Shown: in pieces, positions 12,517-27,684 of the stretch
How positions within the stretch are numbered: position 1 is the first letter of the stretch
How the letters are laid out: every line of letters starts with the position of its first letter
NCBI GenBank assembly: GCA_947629315.1
Contig: CANRDB010000001.1
Coordinates: 4,829-68,828 of the forward strand
Direction: 5' to 3'
DNA length: 64,000 nucleotides
DNA from: an uncultured Bacilli bacterium
GTDB lineage: Bacteria; Bacillota_I; Bacilli_A; RF39; UBA660
Position numbers and translations under genes: made by a program
Notes under the pieces: model-generated
Database searches by the model: none
Seen by the model: the letters and a program-made list of their open reading frames with translations, nothing else
What the model was told of the DNA's origin: nothing

Positions 12517-12615
12517 CTACGATTTCATTTTATCATATTTTTCTATAAAAAAGAAGATTTTCATCATATTCCTCAAAATTTTTTCATACACTTTATTGAA
12601 AAAAGGAGGAAACAG

Positions 12616-13113
12616 ATGATAAACAAAAAAGGAGTTTGGTTTTTAACATTATTCAGTTTAATTTTAGTTCTAAGTGTCTACTATATCACCATGCCACCAG
12701 AATTACTTGTCACTAGTAAAAAAAATCCATCTAATGACAATTCCCAACCAGTTGCCAATATGGAAGAAAGCAGTATCCTTGTCGCATTAAGAGTAGAAGC
12801 AGATGAAACAATGGAAGAAGAACTATCCTCTTTAAAGAAAATCATCAGCAATGCCGAGAGTTCTGTAGAAGATAAGAATAAAGCATTTGAAAAAATCAAA
12901 GAACTGAATTCTAATCGCAGTGCGGAAGAAAATCTAGAATCCAAAATTGAATCTACTTATCAACTCCAATCATTTGTCAAAATTAATGGCAATGTCATCG
13001 AGGTCATCGTTCACAAAAGTGAACACGACAGCAAATTGGCAAATGATATCATGAGAACCATTCAAGAAGAATTTGATACCTCTAAAAATATTACTGTGAA
13101 ATTTCAAAAATAG
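12616..13113 (+). CDS. SpoIIIAH-like sporulation protein
   Basis: N-terminal TM, a Glu-rich helical region (LRVEADETMEEELSSLKKII...EENLESKIES) and a C-terminal beta domain (VKINGNVIEVIVHKSE). This matches the SpoIIIAH family layout. Strong AAGGAGG SD. Confidence 0.5.
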   Translation: MINKKGVWFLTLFSLILVLSVYYITMPPELLVTSKKNPSNDNSQPVANMEESSILVALRVEADETMEEELSSLKKIISNAESSVEDKNKAFEKIKELNSNRSAEENLESKIESTYQLQSFVKINGNVIEVIVHKSEHDSKLANDIMRTIQEEFDTSKNITVKFQK

Positions 13114-13194
13114 GCAGAATGAGACACCAAACAAATTTTTTCTCATAAAATACTATGAATATGATAAACCACCCTATCAGGAAGTGAGGGAGCA

Positions 13195-13401
13195 ATGAGA
13201 AAAAATATTTTAACAAACAGAGAAAAAGAAGTGTTTGATTTGTTAATTCAAAACTATACAACCAAAGAAATTGCAAAGCAGTTAAAAATTAGTGAAAAAA
13301 CAGTTCGAAATCACATCTCGAATACCATCCAAAAAATTGGTGTCAAAGGAAGAGCAGCTGCTGTTGTTGAACTATTACGGCTAGGAGAAATTTCTTTATA
13401 A
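13195..13401 (+). CDS. GerE/LuxR-type HTH transcription regulator (stand-alone 68 aa)
   Basis: LTNREKEVFDLLIQNYTTKEIAKQLKISEKTVRNHISNTIQKIGV is the LuxR C-terminal HTH. The size and stand-alone form resemble GerE. Confidence 0.75.
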   Translation: MRKNILTNREKEVFDLLIQNYTTKEIAKQLKISEKTVRNHISNTIQKIGVKGRAAAVVELLRLGEISL

Positions 13402-13448
13402 AATGCATGTATATGCATTTTTTTCATATAATTTATTGAGGTGTTACT

Positions 13449-14405
13449 ATGTTAAAAAACATGTCTATGAAAAAAATTATTACCTCTTCTATTGTATTGA
13501 TGATTGTCTCTCTTCTTTCCTTTCTCCCCAACAAACCCAATAATCAGTTAGAAATTCCAACGAGTATTGAATATGTCAGTCAGAATGTTCAAACCCATAC
13601 TATCTACTTATTGGATAACAATAACTATATCAGTAAAACATCAATTAAAATTCGTTCGGAAGATAAAGAAGACATCGCTCGAGAATTGCTAGAGACTATG
13701 ATTCAAGAAGGAAAAAATAGCGATCAAATTCCTAGTGGATTTCTTCCCATTATCCCTAGCAATACAAAAATTAATGCCTTATCCATTCAAGAAGATACTC
13801 TGAAAGTAGACGTTAGTGCAGAGTTCCTAAATACCTCCAAAGAATTAGAAGAAAAACTGATTGAAGCTGTCGTCTATACTTTAACGAGCATTGATGGCAT
13901 CCAAAACATTATTCTTTATGTAGATGGGAACATCCTAACGAAACTTCCGCAAACGAAAATCAATCTTCCTACCACTTTGAATCGTCAAATTGGCATTAAC
14001 AAAACATATCAATTAACCGCTCTTACCAACGTCACCGCCACCAACATCTACTACATTCGTAAATACAACGATAACTACTTCTATACGCCTGTTACTAAGA
14101 TTACCAATGACAATCGAGAAAAAATAGAAATTATTATTGAGGAACTTAGTAGTTCGGTTCCTCAAAACAATCTCATGAGTTTTCTAAATAGCAATACCCA
14201 ACTACTGAATTTTACGATTGATTATGACCAAATGATTATCTGTTTTGATGAATACATTTTTAACGATTTAGAAACCAAAGACATTTTGGAAGAAGTCCTC
14301 GATACCATCTCTCTTTCCATATATGATAACTATCCAGTAGAAGAAGTAATCTTTCAAGTCGATAACCAAGAAATTGCGAAAACTACTGTAAAATCTATTG
14401 AATAA
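13449..14405 (+). CDS. GerM-domain-like spore germination/sporulation protein
   Basis: N-terminal signal/anchor and two repeated domains with GerM-like motifs (LLETMIQEG...IPSGFLPIIPSNTKINALSIQEDTLKVDVSAEF). Confidence 0.5.
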   Translation: MLKNMSMKKIITSSIVLMIVSLLSFLPNKPNNQLEIPTSIEYVSQNVQTHTIYLLDNNNYISKTSIKIRSEDKEDIARELLETMIQEGKNSDQIPSGFLPIIPSNTKINALSIQEDTLKVDVSAEFLNTSKELEEKLIEAVVYTLTSIDGIQNIILYVDGNILTKLPQTKINLPTTLNRQIGINKTYQLTALTNVTATNIYYIRKYNDNYFYTPVTKITNDNREKIEIIIEELSSSVPQNNLMSFLNSNTQLLNFTIDYDQMIICFDEYIFNDLETKDILEEVLDTISLSIYDNYPVEEVIFQVDNQEIAKTTVKSIE

Positions 14406-14451: not shown

Positions 14452-14528
14452 GTCTCAGTAGCTCAGCTGGATAGAGCATCGCCCTTCTAAGGCGAGTGTC
14501 AGGGGTTCGAATCCCTTCTGGGACACCA
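14452..14528 (+). tRNA. tRNA-Arg (anticodon TCT), CCA encoded
   Basis: Hand-folded cloverleaf: acceptor GTCTCAG/CTGGGAC, anticodon stem TCGCC/GGCGA with loop CTTCTAA, T-loop TTCGAAT. Confidence 0.85.
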
Positions 14529-14651: not shown

Positions 14652-17600
14652 ATGAGGTGTCACATGAGTCAATCGGATAAATTAAAACAAATAACAGGTA
14701 GAGTAAAACGAGAAATGGACCGCACCATTCGTGAAATTAATCGTTACTATGCCAGTTATAGTCAAGAATTAGAAAACAGACAGATTCTAGATCCTAACAA
14801 CGAAGAACAAAGGGCTTTAGCAGAGCAATTCTTTCAAAGAGAGACAGAAAATCTAAAACAGGAATTACATCAATTCATCGAATCTGGCATCAATGAAGAA
14901 GATGCCTTAAAAAGTGAATTACCTCGCGCTTATGCTTTAGTCAAAACAGCGAGTAAATTTTTATGGAACAAGCCTCACTATGATGTTCAATTAATGGGTG
15001 GTATTCTTTTAAATGATGGATATGTTTCCCAAATGGCTACTGGGGAAGGAAAAACGCTAACAGCTGCCCTCCCCGCCTATTTAAATGCTCTTCTCGGTAA
15101 AGGAGTACATGTCTTAACACCAAATGCCTATCTAGCAAAAAGAGACCAAGAAGAGATGGGGGAACTCTACGGCTTACTAGGTCTATCTTGTGGTCTTGCC
15201 AATACTGAACGATTCGATTTTACACAGGCAGATGTACAGCGCCGAATGGATGAAATTATAGCGCGAGAAGTTTCCGAACTTTCTTATCAAATCGACTGTT
15301 CTTCAGCAGGAACTAAAAAAGGACGAAAAACGGATACGGAAACAAGCCAAAGAAGAATTAAAAAATGAATGTCTCGCAAGAAAAAGAAAAGTATATCAAA
15401 TGGATATTGTCTATGGAGCAACCCATGCCATTGCTTTCGATTATCTATGGGATGGTCTTGCGCAAGAGGAACAAGGGACCGTACAACGGATTGGACAACC
15501 AAACTTTGCTATTATCGATGAGGCAGATGACGTACTTTTTGACAGTGCGAGAACTCCTTATATTATTTCCGGTTCTCAAGAAGATGAGGAATTGAGAATT
15601 CGAAGTGAAGATGCCGAAAATGTGGTGAAATCTATCAAACAGGCAAATGAGGCAGTTTCCTATCTATACGATACCATTCAATTTTGGCAAAGAAAAAATG
15701 GAGAAGTTCTAGAAGGAGAAATCCCTGAAAATGAGAAACACAAACGAAAAGATTATGTCTCTTTTGAAAATGACATGAATCTAGCGCTCATTACGACATC
15801 GCAAACTCGTGAATGTGAATTAACCACCCTAGGAGAAACGATTATTTTTCAAAAGTACTATGGACAACAAATTCAAGAGATATTAAATAAAAATCAAGAT
15901 CTTATTATGTCATTGGAACAAAATGGAGCTCCCCTACTAAAATCGAATGTGGACTATTTCATTAATTTAGATGGAGAGATTTCTCTTGCTCCTCGCGCAT
16001 TTGCTTACTTAGTCGCGGGAGAATACATCTCAGAGTTATCTAATCTATTTGTTCATTTCCGTGGGAAAGAACTACTCCAAGATAGTGAATTTATTCAAAA
16101 TGCTTTGAAAGCATGGTTCACGTATCAAGAAGGACATGATTATGCCTTTGATGAGAAAACTTCATCAGTAGTACCAATCATTAACGGTCGAATTTACAAA
16201 GGTAGAAAATACGCTAAAGGATTTCAACAAGCTCTAGAAGAAAAAACCAAAGTATTATTACAAAAGCAATTGGGAGATAGAGCGCCAAAAATCAACGAAT
16301 CCAGACTAACAGAGACATTAGCGTCTATCCCTACCAATGCTTTCTTTGCTCGCTACCAGAAAGTTGGAGGAATGACGGGTACTTCTGCTGTTTTTGCTTT
16401 CAATAACCTTTATGGTCTAGATTCCTATGCGGTACCGAGAAACCGTCCTCGACAAGTTATCGATCACGGAGAGAGATTCTATACAAATAAGGATGCGAAA
16501 TATGAAGCTATTTTCCAATTGGCATTACAAGCCTATCAAACAAAACAACCACTCCTTATTTCTACCACTTCTACGGAAGAGAGTGAACTTCTACAGAAAT
16601 ATTTAATATCTCGATTAGAACAATATCAAAGAGGACTTCCAGAACGGGAAAGAAGAGCGATTAAGATTCCAGTTTTAAATGCCAGTGTTACCAAGTTGGC
16701 AGATGAAGCTAAAATTATATCTAACGCCGGTATTCCTGGGGCGATTACCATTGCAACTGAAATGGCTGGTCGTGGAACAGATATTAAATTAGGAGGAGAA
16801 GTTCCTGATAAACAAGAATTAATTCAGTCCATGCTTAAAATTAAAGTAAGGTCTCTTGTGGAAAAAAGAAAAAAAGCAGGTCTTGTCGATGAACAAAAAT
16901 ATAAAACACAACTGACTTATAAAAAAAGAATAGACCAAGAAGCAAGACAGTGGATTATTGATAACATCGGTATGGATGCCATTGCCAAAGAAATTGAAGA
17001 ACCTTATCGCCTATTAAAACAAGAAAAAGAACAACGAGAAAGTTTTATTAAAAACAACTCAGCGTTTAAAGGATTAAAAGTTGTCGTTTGTGGACATTTC
17101 CCATCTGCACGGACAGATGACCAAGTCAAAGGTCGATGTGGAAGACAAGGTGATCCAGGAGAATATATCTTCCTAAGTGATCCTGATGATTTAGCGCATG
17201 TTGGTATCAATCCTACTACCATTGAACGTCTCAAGATTATCGCTAATAGCCAACCAGATCACTGCATCGTAGAAACAGCGAACTCCAAACTATTCCACCT
17301 TCGAAAAATGATTTTATCCGCACAACGTCATAACGATAATATGAGTCATGAAAACATTCTCTCCTCTCTTCAATTTGATGCCGCTATCAGTACTTGCCGA
17401 GAGAGTGTTAGAAAAGTAACTGATCGATTCAAGCAAACAGAAAATTACATATCTTATATGAAGATAGCGATTGATAATACCTGTCAAAGTATTCTAGAAG
17501 GTTCTTCTGAAAATAAGAACTATACTTATCCTGATATAGAACGAAGTACCATCCAAAAGGCACATCTTAATCTTCCAAAAGTATGTTCTCTTTGTGAAGA

Positions 17601-18366
17601 CTTCCTTGGGGTAGAGATATCCCCTGAACTACTCGCATCCGCTAGAACAGTTCGGGATGTGAAAAATATAATCGAACAGAAAAGTACTCAGAGATTAGAA
17701 GTCTATATCGATCAACAGAAAAAGGAACAAATCAAAAAGTTAAAAGAGAAATATCAAAAACATAATGCGAGAATCTTAAACATTTCGGAAATCGTCAATT
17801 TATTCCGACAGACAGGAATTCAAGGATTAAAAGGTTATGTGCAAGAGCGTCTTAACTTCAAAAAATATGCAAAACTTTCCGATATCGAATTAGAAGCGGA
17901 AGTTACCGAAACGCTCAATGAATCTTTCAAAGAAAAATTTTATCAAACTATCAATCGTGCATGGGATAAATTTGAAGAAGATATTGAGGAATTTAAATTG
18001 CAAGTACAATGGACGAATCAATTTGAGTCTCATCCGTTGTCACCAGAAAGCATTCAAAGTTCTATCCAACGTGATTTCTTTCACTGGATGGATACATACC
18101 AAGCAAGACTCGTCCATGATACGATTCATCCAAGCATTTCTAAAGAGAAAGGTCCAAAGGAAGTGTATCCCGTAAGAATTACGACCGAGGGCATCCAAAG
18201 AGTTGCCGATGATTATGATGAAGAATTACAGGATGAAATTACCAACATTTCGGAAGAGGCATCTGTTCTTGGAGTACTTTCTAGTGATGAAATCGTCCCA
18301 TACAAATTAAAGCCATACGTCAGTATGCCAAATCGAAACGTAGAAAACAGAGGAAGAAGAAGATAA
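14652..18366 (+). pseudogene. Divergent SecA-like (SecA2-type) translocase ATPase, split by a frameshift near 15262-15320
   Basis: ORF 14652..15368 carries [41 protein letters not shown] 15400..18366 continues with DIVYGATHAIAFDYL, IIDEADDVLFDSARTPYIISG, ATEMAGRGTDIKLGG and GRCGRQGDPGE. The second frame is already open from 15262 and reads ...RKRKVYQMDIVYGA, matching SecA. The likely real start is ATG 14664. Confidence 0.75.
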
Positions 18367-18447: not shown

Positions 18448-18717
18448 ATGAATGATGAAATATATCAATATGCTCTACAAAAAATTGAGTGTGATAGTCA
18501 ATTCAAGCCAATTGGATGTTATGGTAATTCCCGTGGCAGTACTGGCCCAACTGGCCCTACCGGTCCGACTGGTCCCCAAGGACCCGCTAGCATCACCATA
18601 GGTACCACAACAACAGGCGCTCCAGGAACAAGTGCAGCTGTTACCAATTCTGGTACTAATCAAAATAGTATTTTAAATTTTGTGATTCCTGCAGGAGCAA
18701 CTGATGCTATGTCATAA
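18448..18717 (+). CDS. Collagen-like protein gene, segment 1 of 4. As it stands it is an 89-aa ORF whose last 5 codons and stop come from element IE-1
   Basis: AGGAGG SD and ATG at 18448. It encodes a 31-aa N-terminal region, then GSTGPTGPTGPTGPQGP, then the module ASITIGTTTTGAPGTSAAVTNSGTNQNSILNFVIPAGAT. The host part ends at 18700 inside GGAGCAA|CTG. Confidence 0.8.
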   Translation: MNDEIYQYALQKIECDSQFKPIGCYGNSRGSTGPTGPTGPTGPQGPASITIGTTTTGAPGTSAAVTNSGTNQNSILNFVIPAGATDAMS

Positions 18718-18726
18718 ATCACAAAA
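18688..18726. other. attL of IE-1
   Basis: cctgcaggAGCAACTGatgctatgtCATAAATCACAAAA. It shares the 8-nt core AGCAACTG with attR1. The outer arm is the inverted partner (13 of 14) of TTTTGTGGTTTATG at 23121. Confidence 0.65.
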
Positions 18727-18742
18727 AAAGAATTGATTAGAA

Positions 18743-20977
18743 TCAATCCTCAATTTCTTTAATCAACATTTGATATAACGCACGATTTCCTTCCTCTGTT
18801 AAATGAATTTTATCCACTCGTACATATTCTTTATGTTGTTGAATCTCTTCATAAAAAGGAATAATATGGAGAGACGATATTCCCAATGTTTCTAGTAATA
18901 TCTCGTCCTCTTCTGTCATCGCTACTACATATAACTCATTTTCTTGGCACAATTGGAAAACTGTTTGTATTTCTTGTTCCAATCTTGGTACCTGACTATC
19001 AAAAGCTACTACTAATCGATAAGTTAACGTATTACTATCCGCAGCTTTTTGAAGTTCTTGTTGCAAATCTTGCCAAGTAAAATCTTGCCGAACAATAAAC
19101 TGTGCTTGTTGATATTCCTGATGTAGTTCATTAAAAATATTCACTAAAACATCATTACCGTAAAAGGTAATTTTATTTTTTAATTCTTCTTCATGATGAT
19201 GAATAATCTCTTCTTTTTTCTGTTGATATCGATCTAGATAAACTTGATAAATAGATTGATAAATTAAGTTGGTGTAAGCCTTTCTTCCTTCTGGAGTTAA
19301 GTGGATACCATCCGCATAAAAATACTTTGAATGTCCTTGTGATGCAGTCTCCCAATCAATAATATGTAAATTAGAATGACTCTTACTTAACTCTTTTAAT
19401 TTACTATTTACATGGACATCTTTATCGTTAGTAACCGTAATCCAAAAGACATCTCTATCACCACACGTTTGTAAAATTTCTTCCTTACAAGAAGAAGAAC
19501 AATCTCCATTCGCACCCAAATTCAATATTACAGGATTACCTAACAGATTACTATCCTCTAATTCTTCTAAAATACCGTTCGCTACCCAAATAGAACGTGA
19601 TACCTTCGCATCAAAATATCCATTTGGAAATTGTTTATAGAGATTATCAACAGCTCCTAACATAATAGAATCCCCGACTCCAACTACGGATAACTCAGAA
19701 ACAATCTTTTGAATTTCTTGTTCCCCATTCTCTAAATCCTCTAAAACAGAGAACCAATCTTCTTGTTCCTGTTGTAATCGATCCGCATACTCTTTTTGTT
19801 TTTGTTGAATAACCTCTTCATTAGCCGCTAACTCTTCTTTTAGTCTTTTCATTTCTGCCGTATGATCCTTCGTTTGTGCATAACAATAAACACCAGGAAC
19901 ACAGATGACACACAATATGATAGCCATCGCTGCATGCATTCTCGTTCTAGCATGGGGTCGACTACTGATGCTAAAATGAAAAACGGAACCTACTACAAGC
20001 ACTCCTAAAAGAATCGATAAAATCCGTACAGAATCCGACATTGAAAAGGCTTGCAAAAAGTAAATAATCGGATACTGAACCAAGTAGATGCAATAACTTC
20101 TATCTGAAAACCAATGAACAATTCGGTTTCCTACCCCTGCTAATTTGTTTACCATCAAAGTACTATAATCAATCATCCGACAAGTAATAAGAGATACTAT
20201 CAACATTGCTACTGCCCAAGAAGGTGCAGAAGCATCGATTGTTAAAAATAACCAAACTAAGAGAACAAAATATCCTCCAAAAAGACCATAGGCAATCAGA
20301 GAATGTTTCATGTTTTTTAGAATAAGTGGATAATAATAAAACTGAATAAACCCTAAAGTCATTCCCCAAAATAAGGAAAACATTCTCGTAAACGTATGAT
20401 AGTAAACCACCATAATATCTTGCGTGCCACTCATTTGATAAAAATACCAAGCACTTCCTATCGATACTACCAATAATAGTAAACAAGGAATCATTTTATG
20501 AATATGATCTCCTATTTTACGTAATATTTGATAGAAGAATGGAAAAAGCAAATCAAATTGCAATAAAATAGAAATATACCATAAATGCATAAATGGAGAA
20601 TCTAAGTGTCTAGCAAAATAATCTAAATTCGCCCCTAATTGCCAAAAATTATTATATCCTAACAAAACAGATGTTGTCTCTGGTTTTAAATTCAACCATG
20701 TATACTGGGAACAAAAAAACACAACAAAAAGAGTTAAGAACACAGTCAATAACAAAGGAAAATATATTTTAGTAAACAGTCTCTTATAATATTCCCAAAT
20801 AGAAAAATGATTCTTATGAAAAGCTGAAACGCACGATAGATAGCCACTTAACACAAAGAAACAACAGACCGCTAAATAGCCTCCTTTTAAAACATGCAAA
20901 TGATAAAGCAAAACGGCAATGCATGATAACACTCGTAAATAATCTAGTGCATAATAATACTTCTTAGTACTTTCCAT
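18743..20977 (-). CDS. OatA-like O-acyltransferase: acyltransferase-3 membrane domain + coiled coil + SGNH hydrolase domain + extra C-terminal domain
   Basis: About 10 TM helices with the N-terminal YLRVLSCIAVLLYH motif, then VVGVGDSIMLGA (SGNH block I) and DGIHLT (block V). Confidence 0.8.
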   Translation of the reverse strand: MESTKKYYYALDYLRVLSCIAVLLYHLHVLKGGYLAVCCFFVLSGYLSCVSAFHKNHFSIWEYYKRLFTKIYFPLLLTVFLTLFVVFFCSQYTWLNLKPETTSVLLGYNNFWQLGANLDYFARHLDSPFMHLWYISILLQFDLLFPFFYQILRKIGDHIHKMIPCLLLLVVSIGSAWYFYQMSGTQDIMVVYYHTFTRMFSLFWGMTLGFIQFYYYPLILKNMKHSLIAYGLFGGYFVLLVWLFLTIDASAPSWAVAMLIVSLITCRMIDYSTLMVNKLAGVGNRIVHWFSDRSYCIYLVQYPIIYFLQAFSMSDSVRILSILLGVLVVGSVFHFSISSRPHARTRMHAAMAIILCVICVPGVYCYAQTKDHTAEMKRLKEELAANEEVIQQKQKEYADRLQQEQEDWFSVLEDLENGEQEIQKIVSELSVVGVGDSIMLGAVDNLYKQFPNGYFDAKVSRSIWVANGILEELEDSNLLGNPVILNLGANGDCSSSCKEEILQTCGDRDVFWITVTNDKDVHVNSKLKELSKSHSNLHIIDWETASQGHSKYFYADGIHLTPEGRKAYTNLIYQSIYQVYLDRYQQKKEEIIHHHEEELKNKITFYGNDVLVNIFNELHQEYQQAQFIVRQDFTWQDLQQELQKAADSNTLTYRLVVAFDSQVPRLEQEIQTVFQLCQENELYVVAMTEEDEILLETLGISSLHIIPFYEEIQQHKEYVRVDKIHLTEEGNRALYQMLIKEIED

Positions 20978-21122
20978 ATTTCAAACCTCATTCATTGTGA
21001 TTATATATCATAAAGCCTTAAAATTCAAGACACTTTACGTCAATCCTAACTAATATTTTGTGAGAAAAAAACATGATTATTTGTTTCATTTTATTTTATG
21101 CAATTAGAAAGGAGTTATACTG

Positions 21123-23120
21123 TTGAATCAAAAAAGAGTGGCATTATATCTACGATTATCCAAAGAAGATATCGACAAGCCAACCAAGTTCTCTATCAGC
21201 GAAAGTATCAAAAATCAAGAACTATTACTGCGTGAAGAAGTGAAAAAACACCCTGATTGGGTCGTAGTAGCTGTCTATTCTGATGAAGACTTTTCAGGAG
21301 CAGGAACTTATCGACCAAGCTTTGACAAAATGATTCATGCCTGTGAAAAGCACATGATTGATATCATTCTCTGTAAAAGTCAGTCCCGTTTTTCTAGAGA
21401 TATGGAATTAATTGAAAAATATATTCATAACAAATTTAAAGAATGGAATATACGATTCATTAGTATCGTAGATAATGCCGATACTGATAACGATGGCAAT
21501 AAAAAATCTAGACAGATTAATGCTCTTGTCAATGAATGGTTTCTAGAGGATTTATCCGATAATATTCGGGCAACTTTACGAACAAAATGGCAGCATGGAG
21601 AATGTACCGCTGCTTTCGCTAAATATGGATTTCTAAAAGATCCCCAACATAAAAATCACCTAATCATAGATACGGTTGCTAGTCAAACCATTCAAGAAAT
21701 TGCTCATCTCTTTTTAGAGGGAAAAGGTCCAGAAACCATCGCTCACATTTTAGAACAGAAGCATATTCCTAGTCCTTATGAATACAAACTACAAATGGGA
21801 AGTAAACTAAAAATTCCTTTGCTTTCCTTAAACCATCCAAAAATAATTACTAAAAACGGAAAATATATTTTTACCCTTTTTCCAAGTGGAGAACCAATAG
21901 ACCATGTCGTCCTATCCATCCTACCATTTCAAGATTACGATATGACACTAACTCTCATAAAACAAAGTGGCAATGTAAAGGTTTATTATTCCCAGGAGAA
22001 ATTCTCTTCTGCTATCGAAACCGTATTGCCGGTTGAACATTCTTCATTTTGGAGACAATTGCCTATCAATCTTTCTATTTCTCATATTCAACTACTGGCT
22101 ATCTATTGTCTTCCAAACAATTTAGAAAAAACTTATTTAGAATGGGAAATAAACATCCATACCCTACCGTCTCATGATTTTTCTTTAAACATCCAATCCT
22201 TTGATGCAATACACCAACCAATTGATTTTTGGCAGTATCGAATCAGAAAAAAATATCAGTGGAATAGTCGGACAATCTATCACATTTTGAAAGATGAAAC
22301 TTATCATGGTACCTTAATTCAAGGAAAAACAAAGCGAATCAGTTATAAAAATCATACTAGTATTGCTACTCCCAAAGAGCAATGGTATGTTCAAGAAAAT
22401 ATTCTCCCTAAAATTCTAGATGATCAAACTTGGATAGCTATTCAAAATAAATTACAACTACATCCACGCGCAAGCAAAAATGGAAAACACCCTATCTTTA
22501 CTGGAAAAGTTTTTTGTGGAGTATGTGGAAAACCTCTTCAAAAAAACTCGAGCAGTTCTCTTGCTTCCCCTGTTAAAAAAGAATATTTAATTTGTAAAGC
22601 AAGAAAAGAACATTGGAAGAATTGTGAAAACAAAAAATCATTTCCCGTTTTAGAATTACAAAAATTAATCATTACTCAATTTCAAAATTTATGGAATTCC
22701 TATTACGATATGACTACCTTAAAGCAGATTCATAAGGAAGAACCCCATCATCAAACTATAGACGATCTCATGAAAGAAGAACAAAATTTACAAGAAATTA
22801 TCCAGCAGAATAACCAAATTCTTTATCAATTATACAAAGATAAAAGCACTGGCCTCATGGATGATTCTTGTTTTCATACCCTACTTCTACAAAATCAACA
22901 GGAAATGGATACTTATCACCAAAGATTGCAAATGATTGCCCAAGAGTTAAAACAGATTCAAACGAAACAGGAATTTTTCATGTCTACTGTGTGTGAATTT
23001 CTCAATACTCATTCCTTTGAAGACTATTTTTCAACCATTCTACAGCATTTTATTAGCAGCATTTTCATTGGAAAGCTGAACCATCATCAAAGAACAATCC
23101 AAATTCATTGGAAAATCTAA
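21123..23120 (+). CDS. Large serine recombinase Rec1 (665 aa, TTG start)
   Basis: [12 protein letters not shown] (catalytic Ser), [10 protein letters not shown], a recombinase domain, a zinc ribbon (CGVCGKP...[11 protein letters not shown]), a coiled coil and a C-terminal IQIHWKI tail. AGGAG SD 7 nt before the TTG. Carries about 150 extra aa compared with Rec2. Confidence 0.9.
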
Positions 23121-23281
<161 letters not shown>

Positions 23282-23288
<7 letters not shown>

Positions 23289-24784
23289 ATCCACTCTATA
23301 GTAACTACTCTTTTTCCCTGTTCTATATTGCCAATTTGTATTCGTTGAATAAAATTCTTTACCGTCTTAAGGGAAAGTTCAAGTTTTCTTTTAGAAAAAG
23401 AAAATGACATTTGTTCTTTTTTCATATTGGCAAGAGTATTTGATAACTTCTCTAACTCTTTGATATAACTTTTTTTGAGATTTTGAAAAACCTCATCATC
23501 TAGTTGTTGTTGAACATAATCGTCATACACTTTTTTTAAGCCTCGTTCTTTTTGATGGTAATCTTTTTCTAATCGTTCAAATTCTTTCTTATATAATAGA
23601 TTCTGTTCTATACTATATTGCTTCTCATATTCTAAAAGCAATTGTTCGTCGACAAATTGATGATAAAACTTCAAAAATTCTTTGAACACTAAAGATTCTA
23701 TCACATCCAAACGAATAGAGGTATGATTATCACAATGTTGCCAATAACTTCTTCTATCACGACAAACTAAATACGAATACACAGAATGGCTAGAAGAATT
23801 TTTTTCAAAGGATTGTCCACATTTTTGACAATATATTTTTTTACTAAACTCATAAATTTTACCCGTTTTAGATTGAATTCTCGTCTTTTGTTGCATTCTT
23901 CTTTGTACCTCATTCCACATCGATAAAGAAATAATCGGGTCATGCTGATGAGATACAACAATCCAATCCTTTTTTTGAAGAGAAATTACCTTTTTATTTT
24001 TATAGGAAATTTTTCGATATTTTCCCTGTACTACACTACCAATATACACTTCATTTTTTAAAATATCTGCAATTGTTTTTTCACTCCATTGATTACTAGT
24101 CGATGGTCCATAATATTTAGAACCTATTTCTTTTTTATATTGACTGGGAGTTGGAATCCCTTGATGATTCAAACACTGCTTAATTTTAGAATATCCATAA
24201 CCTTTCGCATATAACGCATATATTTGTTGAACATATTTAGAAGCAATCGGGTCAATTTCTAAATGATTTTTATCTTTCTTTTGGTAACCAAAAGGCGCAA
24301 AAGAACCGGTAAATAGACCAACTTCTTTTTTATTTCGTAATGTTTTACGAATATTTATAGAAGAATCTTCCAAATACCATTCATTCATCAAAGCATTGAT
24401 TTGTCTGGTTTTTTTATTTTCTTCTACAGAGGTATCAGCATGATCAACTAAACTGATAAAACGAACGTTCCACTCTTTAAATTTATTATGAATATATTGT
24501 TCAATTACTTCTAAATCTCTCGAAAAGCGAGACTGACTCTTACATAATACAATATCAATATTTCCTTGTTCACAATCTTTTAGCATGCGGATAAAAGCTG
24601 GTCTTTCTCTATCGATACCAGAGTAATCCTCATCAATATAAATATCAAAGATATCCCATCCTTCTTCTTGAACTTTTTGAAGTAACATTCTCCTTTGATT
24701 TTGAATACTTTCACTAAAGTCTTTTTTATCAATATCTTCTTTGGATAATCGCAAATAGATTGCTACTCTATTGTTCCCTATCAT
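23282..24784 (-). CDS. Large serine recombinase Rec2 (close paralog of Rec1)
   Basis: [36 protein letters not shown] (near-identical in Rec1), zinc ribbon CQKCGQ...[11 protein letters not shown], and the tail VVTIEWIF. The ORF track extends to 24796. MIGNNR at 24784 has the better SD (GAGGA). Confidence 0.9.
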
Positions 24785-24866
24785 AAGATTCCTCATTTTG
24801 AGAAAGAATTTCTTGTTCTAATACCGCCAACAACTGACGATTAAAAGTTTCTTTCCTTTGTTCCAT
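24768..24866 (-). CDS. Possible 32-aa ORF overlapping the Rec2 start
   Basis: Own translation: [32 protein letters not shown], with a GAGGAAAAG SD upstream. Too short to be sure it is expressed. Confidence 0.2.
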   Translation of the reverse strand: MEQRKETFNRQLLAVLEQEILSQNEESYDREQ

Positions 24867-24983
24867 AGACTTTTCCTCATCATGGAATACATTGATTATT
24901 TCAATATTATATTTCATATTTTCACCATTACAAAATATGAAAAAAAGCGAAGATTTATATCTCCACTTCTTTCTCCTGCAAAA

Positions 24984-26012
24984 TCATTTTCGCTGTTGGC
25001 TAATATCTAATACCCATAAAATATTCGATGGTAGAATACTTCCACAATACGAGCATATCTTATCAAAGAGTCCCACATTGGCGCCACAATTGTGACATTT
25101 TTTCACACTATTCATCGTAAACTTCGGATAATAATTTTGATTACGAATCAAGGTTACTGTTTCTTTTCCCTGCACTTTTTTGATGCGACCATTGCGTTCA
25201 AAATACTTTCGAATAATAAAAGTAATTCGAATGGCAGGAATATTCCCCTTCTTGATAACTTTATAAGTATCATACTCTAAAATTTCAAAATCTACTAAAT
25301 CTTGATATTGAGGAAAAATTTTCTCATCATAGTAATGCACCAACAATTGGTAATTTAAATCTTGAATAATCTTTTGATTACTCATCCGAACTTTATCAAT
25401 CATAATTCTATCATTCCTTAAGTCACGATAGGTAATCACTTTTACCAAAAGATAAGGAATCAAAAGAAAAGTATACAATAGATGAAGAGTAAATAGCATA
25501 ACAGGTAGTGTCACGAACATCAACATAACGGCAATAAACCAAGGATACTCTCCTGACTGTAAAGTTCCCATAAACGATATACCTGTCAAAATCATGCAAG
25601 TGCTTCCCAAAAAGATTTTATACTTTTTCATAGAAAAAATCTGTTTAAAGGATTGTGTCAAATTTTTTTGATGAACTCCCTGTTCTAAATAAAAAGAAGC
25701 TCCACAATAAGGGCAACCATCGTAAAACTCTTTTTCAGTAGCATGATATCCACATTCAGAACAAGTAAATTCATTATCCCCTCTAGATAATGTCATTGTA
25801 TAAGTTATGTTATCATCAAATTTCTTTTCACGATAAAGACGTTTTCCACCTTGATAATAATTTTTCTCTATCTTATTAGCTTTATAAACAGAATCGTTTC
25901 GGTTTCCATTTAAAGTACGAACAAATAACTGATCTTTATGTCGAAAAATCTCCTCTACTACAAGATTCTTTTTAGCAAGTCTTTGTAAATGCATTTGTAA
26001 AGGACTTGGCAT
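24984..26012 (-). CDS. Membrane protein with two zinc ribbons (IE-2 cargo)
   Basis: CSECG..CPYCG near the N-terminus, at least 3 TM helices, and a C-terminal CHNCG..CSYCG. Confidence 0.6.
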   Translation of the reverse strand: MPSPLQMHLQRLAKKNLVVEEIFRHKDQLFVRTLNGNRNDSVYKANKIEKNYYQGGKRLYREKKFDDNITYTMTLSRGDNEFTCSECGYHATEKEFYDGCPYCGASFYLEQGVHQKNLTQSFKQIFSMKKYKIFLGSTCMILTGISFMGTLQSGEYPWFIAVMLMFVTLPVMLFTLHLLYTFLLIPYLLVKVITYRDLRNDRIMIDKVRMSNQKIIQDLNYQLLVHYYDEKIFPQYQDLVDFEILEYDTYKVIKKGNIPAIRITFIIRKYFERNGRIKKVQGKETVTLIRNQNYYPKFTMNSVKKCHNCGANVGLFDKICSYCGSILPSNILWVLDISQQRK

Positions 26013-26075
26013 ACTATCACACTCCTACTATTCTCATTATAACAAAAAAAGTCCTCATCACAACTATTTTTTTCT

Positions 26076-26115
26076 ATTTTGACAATGAACTATGGAGCAA
26101 CTGGTCCAGTAGGTC
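26076..26115. other. attR of IE-2
   Basis: ATTTTGACAAtgaactatGGAGCAACTGgtccagtaggtc. Confidence 0.7.
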
Positions 26116-26140
26116 CTACTGGAGACGTTGGCCCTACGGG
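26101..26140 (+). pseudogene. Collagen-like gene segment 3 of 4 (40 nt)
   Basis: Reads (a)ct GGT CCA GTA GGT CCT ACT GGA GAC GTT GGC CCT ACG GG = [13 protein letters not shown]. It lies between attR2 and attL3. Confidence 0.65.
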
Positions 26141-26168
26141 TCCTACTGCACTCACTTAAAAGTGGCAC
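26125..26168. other. attL of IE-3
   Basis: gttggccctacgGGTcctactgcactcacttAAAGTGGCACT. The arm is the perfect inverted partner of AGTGCCACTTT at 29419. Confidence 0.6.
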
Positions 26169-26256
26169 TTTTGCCAAAAATTAGAACGAAAATAAGCACT
26201 TTACATTTCATTTGAAATATTATATAATACAAGTAACTAGAAAGAAGGGATTATAA

Positions 26257-27651
26257 ATGAAAAAAGTAGTAGGAACAGTAATGAAAGGGATGCTTGTTAC
26301 TTCAGGAGTTGTCACTGCTGTTGGTTGTACATTAGCTATCAGTAATCATTTGTTGAAATCAGATGATCTTGTTCTATCCAATCACAATGGTAGCGAAGTA
26401 AAACAAGCAAATGTTTTAGCGGTCGCTCAAAATCAAGTAAAGGAAGCGGAAGTTCAAGAGGCAAAAGCCAACCAAGAATTGACAAAAGCAACAAATGAAA
26501 AAGCAGAGGCAGAAAAAGAAGTTCAAAAAGCGAAAGAAACTGTGAAAGAGGTTCAAAAGGAAAAAAGCAAAGCCGAAGCACAATTAAAAGAAGCCAAAAC
26601 AGAAGAAGAAAGAAAACAGGTAGAAGATCAAATTAAAGTTTTAGAAGAAAAAGTGAAAGAAGCTGAAAATAATCAAAAAGCAGCAGAATCAAAAGTACAA
26701 GAAGCAGAGACTAAGGTTCAAGAGGCTGAAGTGAAAGTTCAAGAGGCTGAAGCCAAGGTTCAAGAAGCTGAGGCTAAAGTTCAAGAAGTACAAGAGACAG
26801 AAATGAAGAAACAAGAAGTAGAAAAACAAGTTCAAGAAGTTCTTCCAGCAAATCCTTCAAAAGAAGAAACTCAAACTACTGTCAAAGAAGAAAACACTAC
26901 CAAACCAGTTGAAAATAATCAACAAGTAACGACTCAAGAAACAAAGCAACCAGAGACAAAACAAACTGAAACGAAACAACCAGAGACAAAGCAAGTTGAA
27001 ACAAAACAGACTGAAACGAAAAAAGAAGAATCTTCAACAAACAATAATTCTTCTAATAATAGTTCTTCTAGATTAACGCAAGAGGCTTTAGAGGCTGCAG
27101 CGAGAGCAGAACAAAAATGGAATGAGGAATATCAAAAATTCCTTGCTGATCAAAAAGCAGAAGCAGATGCTAAAAAGCAAGCAAGAGATGAGGAAGCTAA
27201 AAAAGCAGAAGAGGCTGCTGAAAAAGAATTGGAAGAAAGAAGACAAAGAGAATCAACAGACAGTTTAAAGAACTTTGGTTCAGCGACTACTGATACCGTA
27301 TTTGGAGATAGAACTTTTACATTTGCTCAAAAGAATGTAGATTTACCATTTAATCCAGATATCAAAGAAAATCCAAAGAAAGTGACTTGTACAGGAGACC
27401 ATTGCGGAAAGAATGAACAAGGTTACATTTGGTTTGCTAGATTTAATAACAATTTAAATCTTGATATCTTTAAAGAACCTGGTAGTGATCGTTATGTAAG
27501 TAGTGTTCTTATTGGAAAACGTGGCGATGTAGAATATTGGACGCAATATGCACCAAGTGTTGTAAACGGTCATCAATTTGTAGAGTGGAAAGTAACAGAT
27601 ACTACTGAATATGGTATGAAAATTAAAGTTTATACTGCCATTTATAAGTAA
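26257..27651 (+). CDS. Secreted/anchored repeat protein (IE-3 cargo)
   Basis: N-terminal signal/anchor (VVGTVMKGMLVTSGVVTAVGC), KVQEAE-type coiled-coil repeats, ETKQ(P/T/V) repeats, and a C-terminal globular domain containing Cys residues. Confidence 0.7.
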   Translation: MKKVVGTVMKGMLVTSGVVTAVGCTLAISNHLLKSDDLVLSNHNGSEVKQANVLAVAQNQVKEAEVQEAKANQELTKATNEKAEAEKEVQKAKETVKEVQKEKSKAEAQLKEAKTEEERKQVEDQIKVLEEKVKEAENNQKAAESKVQEAETKVQEAEVKVQEAEAKVQEAEAKVQEVQETEMKKQEVEKQVQEVLPANPSKEETQTTVKEENTTKPVENNQQVTTQETKQPETKQTETKQPETKQVETKQTETKKEESSTNNNSSNNSSSRLTQEALEAAARAEQKWNEEYQKFLADQKAEADAKKQARDEEAKKAEEAAEKELEERRQRESTDSLKNFGSATTDTVFGDRTFTFAQKNVDLPFNPDIKENPKKVTCTGDHCGKNEQGYIWFARFNNNLNLDIFKEPGSDRYVSSVLIGKRGDVEYWTQYAPSVVNGHQFVEWKVTDTTEYGMKIKVYTAIYK

Positions 27652-27653
27652 TG

Positions 27654-27684
27654 AAAGAGCGAAACAATTCGCTCTTTTCTTTTG
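27654..27684 (+). terminator. Terminator after the repeat protein
   Basis: AAAGAGCG-aaacaatt-CGCTCTTT followed by TCTTTT. Confidence 0.5.

What the first reader, a model, noticed from the sequence alone, without database searches (positions are those of the whole stretch)
12616..14405. Sporulation-type genes in the same window support, but do not prove, developmentally timed reconstitution
The window encodes a SpoIIIAH-like protein, a stand-alone 68-aa GerE-type regulator and a GerM-domain protein. The split gene has the build of BclA-type exosporium or spore-surface glycoproteins: no signal peptide, GPT-rich collagen, and a neighbouring glycosyltransferase, as in the bclA3-sgtA pairing in C. 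difficile. In known cases, interrupted late sporulation genes are repaired only in the terminally differentiated mother cell, so the germ line keeps the elements. That model fits here. It rests on my family assignments, which were made without a search.
Basis: inference. Interest (0 to 1): 0.55.

Follow-up and report, generated by a model that had tools for sequence, protein, structure and literature searches.

The report
Sporulation genes beside thrice-split collagen gene
An uncultured gut bacterium carries three well-conserved sporulation genes a few kilobases from a collagen-like surface-protein gene that three small recombinase-carrying DNA elements cut into four pieces; repair of that gene during spore formation is plausible but not shown.

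Summary
ORFs 12616-13113, 13195-13401 and 13449-14405 are orthologue-grade matches to B. subtilis SpoIIIAH, GerE and GerM. They form a conserved gene trio in related uncultured gut Bacilli MAGs, are under strong purifying selection (dN/dS 0.01-0.19), and have sigma-E-type (spoIIIAH-like) and sigma-K-type (gerE-like) promoter motifs conserved across six species. The lineage therefore very probably keeps a mother-cell gene-expression programme.

The split gene is also real. Three large-serine-recombinase elements (18704-23149, 23267-26103, 26149-29445) sit at ACTG cores inside Gly-X-Y codons. Removing them in silico gives a 268-aa ORF collinear with intact homologues elsewhere, which are followed by the same GT2-TPR glycosyltransferase.

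The link between the two remains circumstantial. The protein lacks the BclA C-terminal domain and the exosporium leader. No convincing sporulation promoter lies upstream of any recombinase gene. Close relatives differ in how many elements they carry and of what type, and other species have uninterrupted alleles.

Mother-cell excision is my best explanation (about 0.45). The main rival is selfish insertion with no developmental timing (about 0.35). This is a new variant of the skin/SPbeta/gin class.

The parts
12564..12592 (+). sigma-E-type promoter motif TCATATT-N14-CATACACT upstream of the spoIIIAH-like gene
   Evidence: It is the only strict match in 64 kb on both strands, against 0.30-0.35 expected by chance. 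The -35/-10 elements with N13-14 spacing recur upstream of the orthologue in L004, L096, L087, L031 and L033; L087 was read by eye (one -10 mismatch) and missed the scan regex.
12616..13113 (+). spoIIIAH-like gene (165 aa; N-terminal TM segment plus C-terminal SpoIIIAH domain), not part of a spoIIIA operon
   Evidence: Pfam PF12685 E 5.7e-13. PDB hits only to B. subtilis SpoIIIAH. dN/dS 0.08-0.12.
13126..13152 (+). sigma-K-type promoter motif AC-N16-CATAAAATA upstream of the gerE-like gene
   Evidence: Found. AC-N16-CATAnAATA is conserved in all six species compared.
13195..13401 (+). gerE orthologue (68-aa stand-alone LuxR-type HTH)
   Evidence: Pfam GerE E 5.9e-20. B. subtilis GerE 1fse E 8e-26 over the full length. 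90-97% identity to close relatives, dN/dS 0.01-0.05.
13405..13432 (+). hairpin plus T-run after gerE (read by eye as a terminator), overlapping a sigma-E-like motif (one mismatch, N13) with -10 CATATAAT upstream of gerM
   Evidence: The -10 and its distance to the Shine-Dalgarno sequence (SD) are conserved in L004, L031 and L033.
13449..14405 (+). gerM-like gene (318 aa, two GerMN/Germane domains)
   Evidence: Pfam Germane E 5.6e-26, two stretches. B. subtilis GerM 6gzb E 2.8e-29. dN/dS 0.11-0.19.
14452..14528 (+). tRNA-Arg(TCT) between gerM and the SecA-like gene
   Evidence: ARAGORN and Rfam.
14652..18366 (+). long SecA-like gene, here split into 238-aa and 988-aa ORFs by a frame change near 15281-15337
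   Evidence: Pfam SecA_DEAD, P-loop_SecA and SecA_PP_bind. It is intact (1124 and 1151 aa) directly upstream of the collagen gene in L087 and L086. tblastn shows the frame switch.
18448..18703 (+). collagen-like gene, segment 1: N-terminal domain, short collagen run, first beta-rich module. Read in place, it ends at a stop at 18717 (89 aa).
   Evidence: 62-71% identity to N-terminal pieces in relatives.
18704..23149 (.). intervening element A (4446 bp): Acyl_transf_3/SGNH O-acetyltransferase 18743-20977 (-) and a 665-aa large serine recombinase 21123-23120 (+)
   Evidence: GCAACTG cores at 18697 and 23143. attP-type inverted arms match at 23/30 positions. Pfam Resolvase + Recombinase + Zn_ribbon_recom. 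PHROG hits to integrase and O-antigen acetylase only.
23150..23266 (+). collagen-like gene, segment 2 (39 codons of Gly-X-Y)
23267..26103 (.). intervening element B (2837 bp): 504-aa large serine recombinase 23282-24796 (-), 49-aa micro-ORF 24768-24917 (-), and a zinc-ribbon protein with hydrophobic stretches (possibly membrane-spanning) 24984-26012 (-)
   Evidence: GGAGCAACTG cores at 23257-23266 and 26094-26103. Inverted arm TATTTTGACAA matches 11/11. Pfam. Closest solved structure is SPbeta SprA/YokA, 9dxh, E 1.8e-15. An 86%-identical recombinase occupies the same position in L086.
26104..26148 (+). collagen-like gene, segment 3 (15 codons)
26149..29445 (.). intervening element C (3297 bp): 464-aa Glu/Lys-rich protein with a hydrophobic N-terminus (possible signal peptide) 26257-27651 (+), 29-aa micro-ORF 27735-27824 (+), and a 529-aa large serine recombinase 27831-29420 (+)
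   Evidence: ACTG cores at 26145 and 29442. Inverted arms AGTGCCACTTT match 16/18. Pfam.
29446..29834 (+). collagen-like gene, segment 4: long GPTGD(I/V) collagen run, second beta-rich module, stop codon
   Evidence: Collinear with intact homologues such as P0245 (61% identity over 99% of the query).
29840..30925 (+). GT2 + TPR glycosyltransferase gene, starting 6 nt after the collagen gene's stop codon and probably co-transcribed with it
   Evidence: Pfam Glycos_transf_2 and TPR. phrog_13126 beta-1,4-glycosyltransferase E 1.8e-111. The same collagen-GT pair occurs uninterrupted in L098/L099, interrupted once in L087, and in L093.

Best explanation
The three genes are working orthologues of spoIIIAH, gerE and gerM in an uncultured gut member of the class Bacilli, probably the order RF39 or a neighbour. 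They appear to be read from sigma-E-type and sigma-K-type promoters, so the organism very probably keeps the mother-cell half of the endospore programme.

About 4 kb downstream, a collagen-like glycoprotein gene and its co-transcribed glycosyltransferase are interrupted by three unrelated-to-distantly-related large-serine-recombinase (LSR) elements. Each is inserted at an ACTG core within the Gly-Pro/Ala-Thr-Gly coding repeat.

My best reading is that the germ-line chromosome keeps the elements. In the terminally differentiated mother cell, each recombinase, together with an unidentified directionality factor (the conserved micro-ORFs are candidates), excises its element. This rebuilds a 268-aa collagen-like protein with no signal peptide. 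The protein is glycosylated and assembled on the spore surface from the mother-cell cytoplasm.

Shown: the gene identities, the purifying selection, the promoter motifs and their conservation, the element boundaries, the in-frame reconstitution, and collinearity with intact homologues.

Inferred: that the organism sporulates, that the protein is a spore-surface protein, and that excision happens at all and is developmentally timed.
For: (1) Orthologue-grade matches to B. subtilis SpoIIIAH, GerE and GerM.
(2) dN/dS 0.01-0.19 at near-saturated dS, so the genes are in use and not relics.
(3) The only strict sigma-E-type motif in the window lies 23 nt upstream of spoIIIAH, and AC-N16-CATAnAATA lies upstream of gerE in six species. 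This matches the B. subtilis wiring (spoIIIA and gerM sigma-E-dependent, gerE sigma-K-dependent; my own knowledge).
(4) Two further complete sigma-K-type motifs lie directly upstream of same-strand genes: 2148-2174 before a Tyr/Gly/Pro-rich 81-aa ORF, and 57070-57096 before an SDR. The chance of at least 2 of 4 hits being so placed is 0.002.
(5) RF39 genomes are predicted to be spore-formers that retain spoIIIAH, spoIIQ and spoIIGA, and RF39, unlike RFN20 and ML615J-28, is not reported to lack sortases (PMC10868615). The window has both a sortase and spoIIIAH.
(6) Excision in silico gives a perfect Gly-X-Y ORF collinear with intact family members. In L087 the gene is likewise interrupted and reconstitutable; in L090-92 only an intact 3' piece next to the recombinase was seen.
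(7) A CATAnnnTA-like element (CGTA variant in the window and L086) sits 5-10 nt before the collagen gene's SD in eight loci (seven species). The two full sigma-K-type promoters in the window have the same geometry.
(8) Precedents: skin/sigK, SPbeta/spsM, gin/gerE and yin/yabG (PMC5595907). C. difficile bclA1-3 are sigma-K-dependent (PMC3789822).
(9) The L087 element carries upp and uraA, cargo that would be costly to lose by excision in dividing cells.
Against: - No sigma-E- or sigma-K-type promoter of any quality lies upstream of the three recombinase genes or the micro-ORFs. The RecB micro-ORF has only a one-mismatch -10-like CATATTTTG.
- The collagen gene's putative -10 has no -35 'AC' at the right spacing, reads CGTA rather than CATA in this window, and lies so close to the SD that it may not be a promoter.
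- The protein lacks the BclA_C domain, and its end module resembles phage tail-fibre modules.
- Element content differs between close relatives: one B-type element in L087 (94% enolase identity) against three here. RecB is 86% identical to the L086 recombinase but only 49% to that of L087. This points to turnover and horizontal movement.
- At least 37 of 120 N-terminal homologue clusters are intact and uninterrupted.
- In L004 and L096 no recombinase gene or 3' gene piece lies within the sequence held downstream of the junction (about 4 kb in L004, 10 kb in L096).
- No directionality factor was identified.
- The rest of the genome was not seen.
Confidence: 0.45

Rival explanations
1. Selfish insertion with no developmental timing. 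A family of small LSR elements has specialised on the repeated GGx-CCT/GCA-ACT-GGx target that collagen-coding repeats supply in many copies. The collagen gene is a dispensable safe harbour, so several elements can stack in it. Excision is rare or sporadic and serves element transfer, not host development. The nearby sporulation genes are chromosomal neighbours by coincidence.
For: - At least 34 of 120 N-terminal homologue clusters end in junction-type tails of at least five classes, and at least 37 are intact.
- Element number and type vary among close relatives, and an 86%-identical recombinase occurs in another MAG whose N-terminal collagen piece looks clearly more diverged (my estimate from the aligned sequences, about 70%).
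- The elements carry cargo genes (O-acetyltransferase, upp/uraA, and two proteins read by eye as secreted or membrane-associated).
- No sporulation-type promoters lie at the recombinase genes.
- L004/L096 look truncated, with no recombinase nearby.
- A possible sigma-A-like promoter (TTGCAG-N16-TATAAA) upstream of the RecB micro-ORF is visible in the sequence printed (read by eye).
Against: - All downstream gene pieces examined are intact and in frame, including the 240-aa 3' piece in L087.
- The glycosyltransferase, apparently co-transcribed, is retained intact downstream.
- Elements of 2.8-3.3 kb with no transfer or phage genes, and no relatives in IMG/VR, have no obvious route for horizontal spread.
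- The L087 element carries the apparently housekeeping genes upp and uraA.
Confidence: 0.35
2. A reversible on/off or length switch in vegetative cells, as in 'active lysogeny'. Excision and re-integration toggle production of a glycosylated collagen-like cell-surface fibre, possibly handled by the adjacent SecA-like ATPase. Stepwise excision would give 89-, 135-, 142- or 268-aa products.
For: - A long SecA-like gene lies directly upstream of the collagen gene in the window, L086 and L087.
- Partial excision products are all open reading frames.
- An LSR alone can re-integrate an excised circle (established LSR biochemistry; PMC12286644 abstract).
Against: - The protein has no signal peptide or LPXTG motif (sequence).
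- The SecA-like gene is frameshifted here and absent from this position in L004/L096.
- An excised non-replicating circle would be lost on cell division.
- Three independent switches would all have to fire to express the 3' module and the glycosyltransferase.
Confidence: 0.08
3. The lineage no longer sporulates. The trio has been kept for another envelope-related role, so there is no mother cell in which timed excision could occur, and the split gene is simply dead.
For: - spoIIIAH here stands alone, not at the end of a spoIIIAA-AH operon.
- No other Pfam-recognisable sporulation gene was found among about 50 genes in the window.
- The related orders RF39, RFN20 and ML615J-28 contain both sporulating and non-sporulating species (PMC10868615).
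- Germane and LuxR-HTH domains also occur outside spore-formers (my own knowledge).
Against: - Conserved sigma-E-type and sigma-K-type promoter motifs sit exactly where B. subtilis biology predicts them.
- The trio is under strong purifying selection.
- GerE-specific, not generic LuxR, similarity.
- A relative carrying an intact collagen gene also has YlbD_coat, YlbE and SpoVE-family genes.
- RF39 as an order is predicted to form spores.
Confidence: 0.07

Closest known systems
gin element in gerE of Bacillus cereus ATCC 10987 (Abe et al. 2017, PMC5595907)
   Same: A small gene-intervening element with no phage genes that carries site-specific recombinase gene(s). It interrupts a small ORF, and precise recombination at a short shared core restores it. 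An extra small factor (GirX) is needed alongside the recombinase.
   Different: gin is a single element in a regulator gene, and its sporulation-specific excision was shown experimentally. Here three separate elements lie in one structural gene, the target is a repeated collagen-coding motif, and nothing is known experimentally.
skin element in sigK (B. subtilis, C. difficile) and SPbeta in spsM (SprA/SprB)
   Same: An LSR encoded at one end of the element next to the att core. Excision restores a mother-cell gene. Directionality is set by a small RDF under sporulation control (PMC5025042, PMC5499854, PMC4191935). SprA is the closest solved structure to RecB.
   Different: Those are prophage or prophage-remnant elements of 14-134 kb (sizes from my own knowledge) in a single site. 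No RDF homologue or sporulation promoter was found here. The recombinases are only distant relatives (E 1.8e-15 to SprA).
Heterocyst-specific nifD, fdxN and hupL elements of cyanobacteria (XisF is an LSR)
   Same: Developmentally excised elements in genes needed only in a terminally differentiated cell; several elements per genome. All three recombinases give sub-threshold NCBIfam hits to XisF (68-92 bits against a cut-off of 375).
   Different: A different phylum and a different developmental programme. The XisF equivalog cut-off is not met, so these are not XisF members.
BclA-family exosporium glycoproteins and the C. difficile sgtA-bclA3 pair
   Same: No signal peptide, a Thr-rich GXY collagen region, and an adjacent glycosyltransferase gene. 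BclA3 Thr residues in the collagen repeats are glycosylated by SgtA (PMC7157674). bclA1-3 are sigma-K-dependent (PMC3789822).
   Different: No BclA_C/C1q domain and no exosporium leader. Instead there are two ~40-aa beta-rich modules (TIGTxTTGxPG...LNFxIPxG), the second of which resembles modules in phage tail proteins. The glycosyltransferase here is a GT2+TPR protein lying downstream; its family relation to SgtA was not tested.
Collagen-like tip fibrils of endospore appendages (L-BclA, F-BclA; PMC12357932)
   Same: Collagen-like proteins lacking an exosporium leader. L-BclA-type proteins have a Cys-rich N-terminus with a CC motif. Most members of the present family have CC or CCC immediately before the first collagen run.
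   Different: Those proteins end in C1q domains. In this window the motif reads C-Y rather than CC. No Ena/DUF4183 subunit gene was seen.

Membership tests
SpoIIIAH (PF12685) | Sequence match above the curated threshold, with an N-terminal TM segment and a C-terminal ring-building domain | tested here: met
   49.7 bits against a cut-off of 30.6. Residues 46-164 align to B. subtilis SpoIIIAH 3uz0. Hydrophobic segment VWFLTLFSLILVLSVYYI near the N-terminus.
SpoIIIAH (PF12685) | Encoded as the last gene of a spoIIIAA-AH operon | tested here: not met
   The gene stands alone between enolase (opposite strand) and gerE. The arrangement is the same in L004, L087 and L096.
SpoIIIAH (PF12685) | Sigma-E-dependent transcription in the mother cell | tested here: inconclusive
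   A perfect consensus motif at 12564-12592, conserved in relatives. A motif is not evidence of expression.
GerE | Stand-alone LuxR-type HTH of about 70 aa, closer to GerE than to other LuxR-family proteins | tested here: met
   68 aa. 1fse GerE E 8e-26 over residues 3-68; the next generic hit is at 2e-10. Only sub-threshold NCBIfam matches, to other LuxR-type families; none to a GerE model.
GerE | Sigma-K-dependent promoter | tested here: inconclusive
   AC-N16-CATAAAATA at 13126-13152, conserved in six species. In silico only.
GerM | Two GerMN (Germane) domains | tested here: met
   Two Pfam stretches. Residues 46-306 align to 6gzb.
GerM | Lipoprotein signal with a lipobox cysteine (B. subtilis GerM; my own knowledge) | tested here: not met
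   The N-terminus MLKNMSMKKIITSSIVLMIVSLLSFLPNK has a hydrophobic segment but no cysteine.
BclA-type exosporium glycoprotein | Central Thr-rich Gly-X-Y collagen-like region and no signal peptide | tested here: met
   PF01391 E 6.6e-21 on the reconstituted protein. The N-terminus MNDEIYQYALQKIECDSQFKPIG has no hydrophobic stretch.
BclA-type exosporium glycoprotein | C-terminal C1q/TNF-like domain (BclA_C, PF18573) | tested here: not met
   Only the Collagen family matched. The C-terminus is a ~45-aa module ending in [12 protein letters not shown].
BclA-type exosporium glycoprotein | N-terminal exosporium-leader motif that binds ExsF/BxpB | tested here: not met
   No Pro-rich IGPT..PPIP-type motif like the F-Anchor leader peptide quoted in PMC12357932 is visible in residues 1-30. 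Checked by eye only.
BclA-type exosporium glycoprotein | Dedicated glycosyltransferase gene adjacent | tested here: met
   A GT2+TPR gene starts 6 nt downstream. The pairing is conserved in L087, L098/L099 and L093.
BclA-type exosporium glycoprotein | Late mother-cell (sigma-K) expression and location on the spore surface | tested here: inconclusive
   A conserved C(A/G)TAnnnTA element lies 5-10 nt before the SD in eight loci (seven species), but with no -35 AC. Localisation cannot be tested here.
Large serine recombinase | Resolvase catalytic domain with the conserved Ser, plus Recombinase and zinc-ribbon domains | tested here: met
   All three domains are present in all three proteins. Y9, R11, S13 and other positions are invariant in their alignment. 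phrog_95 integrase E 5e-84 to 7e-98.
Large serine recombinase | Short shared core at attL and attR, with imperfect inverted repeats in the reconstructed attP | tested here: met
   Cores are GCAACTG, GGAGCAACTG and ACTG. Arm matches are 23/30, 11/11 and 16/18.
Sporulation-specific gene-intervening element (skin, SPbeta, gin class) | The element interrupts an ORF, and precise site-specific excision restores it | tested here: met
   In silico, at all three joints. The product is collinear with intact homologues.
Sporulation-specific gene-intervening element (skin, SPbeta, gin class) | The host is an endospore former | tested here: inconclusive
   Supportive: the trio, the promoter motifs, and the RF39 prediction. 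The genome outside the window was not available.
Sporulation-specific gene-intervening element (skin, SPbeta, gin class) | The interrupted gene functions only in the mother cell | tested here: inconclusive
   The resemblance to spore-surface collagen proteins is partial.
Sporulation-specific gene-intervening element (skin, SPbeta, gin class) | The recombinase or its directionality factor is under sporulation control, and excision is confined to the mother cell | tested here: inconclusive
   Motif scans upstream of the Rec genes and micro-ORFs found nothing above chance. Excision timing cannot be tested with these tools.

The most novel reading that the evidence does not exclude
A whole family of large-serine-recombinase elements in uncultured gut Bacilli has specialised on the Gly-X-Thr-Gly coding repeat of one spore-surface collagen gene. 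Because the target is repeated, elements stack inside a single ORF. Ordered excision in the mother cell would then both gate the gene and set its fibre length (89, 135, 142 or 268 aa here). That would be a combinatorial developmental DNA-editing system, not a single on/off interruption.
Probability: 0.12. Interest if true: 0.8.

Novelty: new variant of a known kind. Interest (0 to 1): 0.55.

Why it matters
If excision is timed by sporulation, this extends gene-intervening elements from cultured Bacillus and Clostridium to an uncultured, genome-reduced gut lineage known only from metagenomes. It would also be, to my knowledge, the first case of one bacterial structural gene carrying three independent recombinase elements, and of an element family that targets a protein-coding repeat. 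My literature searches found no interrupted collagen-like or bclA gene.

The conserved sigma-E- and sigma-K-type motifs give sequence-level evidence that this lineage keeps mother-cell sigma factors. That bears on whether such gut bacteria transmit between hosts as spores.

If the elements are merely selfish, the result still documents a new target specificity for serine integrases. The defined attB/attP pairs would be of interest as genome-engineering tools.

Tried and rejected
- **NCBIfam** gave no equivalog for SpoIIIAH, GerE or GerM. The recombinases hit XisF and CcrB only far below cut-off, so I make no equivalog-level claims.
- **BclA membership is rejected**: no BclA_C domain.
- **Prophage origin of the elements is rejected**: PHROGs found only integrase and O-acetylase matches, and IMG/VR holds no close relative of RecB.
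- **JGI metagenome scan** with the glycosyltransferase found nothing. I did not use the permitted second scan, because exact patterns from this species are evidently absent from that collection.
- **Exact-protein look-ups** found the window's proteins only on short ENA contigs at about 2x coverage, all in the interrupted configuration. They say nothing about excision.
The last homology search found no near-identical uninterrupted allele; the best full-length hit is 61% identical.
- **A misleading result I corrected.** All 120 best homologues of the N-terminal piece are 156 aa or shorter, which first looked like universal truncation.
- **Sigma-E/K motif scans** inside the elements gave only chance-level one-mismatch hits: 27830-27858 (-) and 21092-21118 (-).
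- **Order-level taxonomy** of the related MAGs could not be confirmed from the literature. The RF39 assignment is an inference.


Full report
**What is at the coordinates.**
- The 165-aa product passes the Pfam SpoIIIAH threshold (49.7 bits against 30.6). Its only sequence relatives in the PDB are the two B. subtilis SpoIIIAH entries.
- The 68-aa product is not just a LuxR-type HTH. It aligns end to end with B. subtilis GerE (1fse, E 8e-26) and a 75-aa relative, sixteen orders of magnitude ahead of ordinary response-regulator output domains.
- The 318-aa product has two Germane domains, and its best solved relative is B. subtilis GerM across both domains (E 2.8e-29).
- NCBIfam has no equivalog that any of them reaches.

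**Organism.** Using the adjacent enolase as a probe, the closest genomes are all metagenome-assembled 'uncultured Bacilli/Tenericutes' from mouse, rabbit, sheep, goat and human guts. The exact proteins occur only on short, low-coverage ENA metagenome contigs. The window also encodes MreC/MreD, Mur ligase, Ddl and a sortase, so the cell has a wall. A comparative study of these orders predicts RF39 to be spore-forming and to retain spoIIIAH, spoIIQ, spoIIGA and spoIIP. It reports sortases as missing from RFN20 and ML615J-28 but not from RF39 (PMC10868615). The window fits RF39 on both counts. I could not confirm the order, so this is an inference.

**Are the three genes in use?** The order spoIIIAH-gerE-gerM beside enolase and FtsK recurs in L004, L096 and L087; in L031 and L033 the trio lies about 3-4 kb from enolase. 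Against the three closest species, dN/dS is 0.08-0.12 for spoIIIAH, 0.01-0.05 for gerE and 0.11-0.19 for gerM, with synonymous sites near saturation. These values are comparable to enolase. The genes are maintained, not decaying.

**Promoter motifs.**
- Upstream of spoIIIAH lies TCATATT-N14-CATACACT, a perfect match to the B. subtilis sigma-E consensus kmATATT-N14-CATACAhT (consensus from my own knowledge). It is the only strict match in the 64 kb on either strand, where 0.3-0.35 are expected. The -35 and -10 elements and the N13-14 spacing recur upstream of the orthologue in five other species; the L087 match (one -10 mismatch) was read by eye.
- Upstream of gerE lies AC-N16-CATAAAATA, the sigma-K pattern, conserved as AC-N16-CATAnAATA in all six species.
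- gerM is preceded by a hairpin with a T-run (read by eye as a terminator) and by CATATAAT at a conserved distance from its SD.
- This mirrors B. subtilis, where spoIIIA and gerM are sigma-E-dependent and gerE is sigma-K-dependent (my own knowledge).
- Two more complete sigma-K-type motifs sit directly upstream of same-strand genes: 2148-2174 before an 81-aa Tyr/Gly/Pro-rich ORF, and 57070-57096 before a short-chain dehydrogenase. The total number of motif hits is not enriched (4 against 5.3 expected), but their placement is: the probability that at least 2 of 4 fall within 50 nt upstream of an annotated start is 0.002.

Taken together, this is good in-silico evidence that the lineage has sigma-E- and sigma-K-like holoenzymes, and hence a mother cell. 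It is not proof. No other Pfam-recognisable sporulation gene lies among the window's other roughly 45 genes, and spoIIIAH is not part of a spoIIIA operon.

**The split gene.** Four in-frame Gly-X-Y segments lie at 18448-18703, 23150-23266, 26104-26148 and 29446-29834. They are separated by three segments, each encoding a large serine recombinase (LSR) with Resolvase, Recombinase and zinc-ribbon domains.
- The recombinases are only 41% and 26% identical to one another, so they are not recent copies.
- Each segment is bounded by a short shared core: GCAACTG, GGAGCAACTG and ACTG.
- Each recombinase gene ends 15-23 bp from a core.
- Each reconstructed attP has imperfect inverted arms around the core, with matches of 23/30, 11/11 and 16/18.
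- Deleting the three segments yields a 268-aa ORF with unbroken triplets. It matches Pfam Collagen only.
- Its layout is: N-terminal domain, short collagen run, a ~40-aa beta-rich module, a long collagen run, a second module, then ...[12 protein letters not shown]. This is collinear with intact proteins elsewhere, for example P0245 (61% identity over 99% of the query) and P0249.
- The next gene, 6 nt downstream, is a GT2+TPR glycosyltransferase. The same pair follows an uninterrupted collagen gene in L098/L099, a once-interrupted one in L087, and a different collagen-like gene in a high-GC faecal contig (L093).

The elements carry no phage genes, and RecB has no close relative in IMG/VR.

**How widespread is the interruption?** In L087, the closest species by enolase (94% identity), the same gene is cut once. 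The element there is B-type, with a recombinase (49% identical to RecB), upp, uraA and a zinc-ribbon protein. Its cores are GGAGCAACTG and AACAACTG, and the joint is again in frame. L086 has an 86%-identical RecB at the same junction. L090-92 have a RecA-type recombinase abutting a collagen 3' piece. Among the 120 best homologue clusters of the N-terminal piece, at least 37 are intact short proteins. At least 34 end just after a G-P/A-T codon in non-collagen tails that fall into recurrent classes (ARLF..., EPY......KKWH..., HTL...), and these tails translate conserved element ends. So an LSR family has specialised on this repeat, and insertion is common but not universal. In L004 and L096 there is no recombinase or 3' piece in the sequence held downstream of the junction (about 4 kb in L004, 10 kb in L096).

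**Does the sporulation context explain the split?**

For:
- The gene product has no signal peptide and is Thr-rich collagen with a dedicated glycosyltransferase. This is like exosporium BclA proteins, which in C. difficile are sigma-K-dependent and are glycosylated on collagen-repeat threonines by the neighbouring SgtA (PMC3789822; PMC7157674).
- Family members mostly carry a CC/CCC motif before the first collagen run, reminiscent of the Cys-rich connectors of endospore-appendage tip fibrils (PMC12357932).
- A C(A/G)TAnnnTA element lies 5-10 nt upstream of the SD in eight loci, from seven species. The two complete sigma-K-type promoters in this window have the same geometry.
- All gene pieces examined remain intact.
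- One element carries upp and uraA, which a dividing cell could ill afford to lose.
- There are experimental precedents, including a non-phage element (gin) and LSR/RDF pairs.

Against:
- The BclA C-terminal domain and the exosporium leader are absent, and the end module resembles modules in phage tail-fibre proteins.
- The collagen gene's putative -10 has no -35 AC and reads CGTA in this window.
- Scans found no credible sigma-E/K promoter upstream of any recombinase gene or micro-ORF.
- No RDF was identified. The conserved micro-ORFs upstream of RecB, RecC and their relatives are only candidates.
- The variation in element number and type between close relatives, and the intact alleles in other species, fit mobile selfish elements equally well.

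**Verdict.** Its inference that the context supports, but does not prove, developmentally timed reconstitution is fair. The 'BclA-type' label should be dropped in favour of 'collagen-like, probably glycosylated protein without signal peptide, of a distinct two-module family'. I put mother-cell excision at about 0.45, selfish insertion without developmental timing at about 0.35, a vegetative switch at about 0.08, and a non-sporulating host at about 0.07. The system is a new variant of the known class of gene-intervening elements.

Noticed in passing
window 14652-18366 (frame change near 15281-15337): The long SecA-like gene is read in two frames (238 aa + 988 aa). The switch falls near an A-rich tract (ACTAAAAAAGGACGAAAAAC). 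Relatives have it intact (1124 and 1151 aa) directly upstream of the collagen gene. It could be an assembly error, a pseudogene or a slippery site.
   Followed up: partly
window 2148-2434 (+): An 81-aa ORF rich in Tyr, Gly, Pro and Asn (GGNYGGNYGGYNPPYY...) is preceded by a complete sigma-K-type motif (AC-N16-CATATTCTA) 6 nt before its SD. It looks like a candidate spore-coat protein. No family search was run on it.
   Followed up: partly
window 57070-58032 (+): A short-chain dehydrogenase gene has a complete sigma-K-type motif (AC-N17-CATATAGTA) 4 nt before its SD. A similar 306-aa SDR gene, also starting MNFDYCYGNQFYNYYDG, lies about 2.6 kb from the truncated collagen gene in L004.
   Followed up: no
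window 24768-24917 (-) and 27735-27824 (+); L086 53-196; L090 7261-7434: Small ORFs (29-57 aa) immediately upstream of, or overlapping, the recombinase genes share a loose pattern ([IV]I..F.D ... F/L..LL). Element A here has none. They have no Pfam or PHROG match and are candidate directionality factors or regulators.
   Followed up: partly
L087 5715-11807; L004 1-4616; L096 10001-12549: In relatives the element, or at least the DNA just past the junction, carries upp and a uracil/xanthine permease gene. These look like host housekeeping genes. In L004 and L096 no recombinase lies in the sequence held past the junction (about 4 kb and 10 kb), so the element may be large or degenerate.
   Followed up: partly
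L093 (MT838491.1) 119-2162: A GenBank record labelled 'UNVERIFIED: Bacteriophage sp.' from human faeces carries a high-GC collagen-like gene followed by a 49%-identical GT2-TPR glycosyltransferase. The pairing therefore extends far beyond this lineage. The GT also matches phrog_13126 over its full length and jumbo-phage glycosyltransferases at 28-42% identity.
   Followed up: partly
window 30961-39400: About 9 kb lies between the glycosyltransferase and the sortase gene: a Pro/Ala-rich protein with a hydrophobic segment, several large proteins with no family match, a trypsin-like peptidase and a clostripain-family peptidase. L087 has only two small genes between its GT and its sortase. This may be a separate variable island.
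   Followed up: no
window 42563-42743 (-): A T-box leader upstream of the seryl-tRNA synthetase gene (Rfam 99.5 bits). An ordinary feature.
   Followed up: no
(tool behaviour): the search for homologous proteins returned no hit longer than about 1.75 times the query length (156 aa for an 89-aa query, 469 aa for a 268-aa query). This could be mistaken for universal truncation of a gene family.
   Followed up: yes
window 39525-39552 (+): The sortase gene is preceded by CATAAAATA, the same -10 sequence as the gerE promoter, 27 nt before its start codon. No AC is visible 16-17 nt upstream in the sequence printed.
   Followed up: partly
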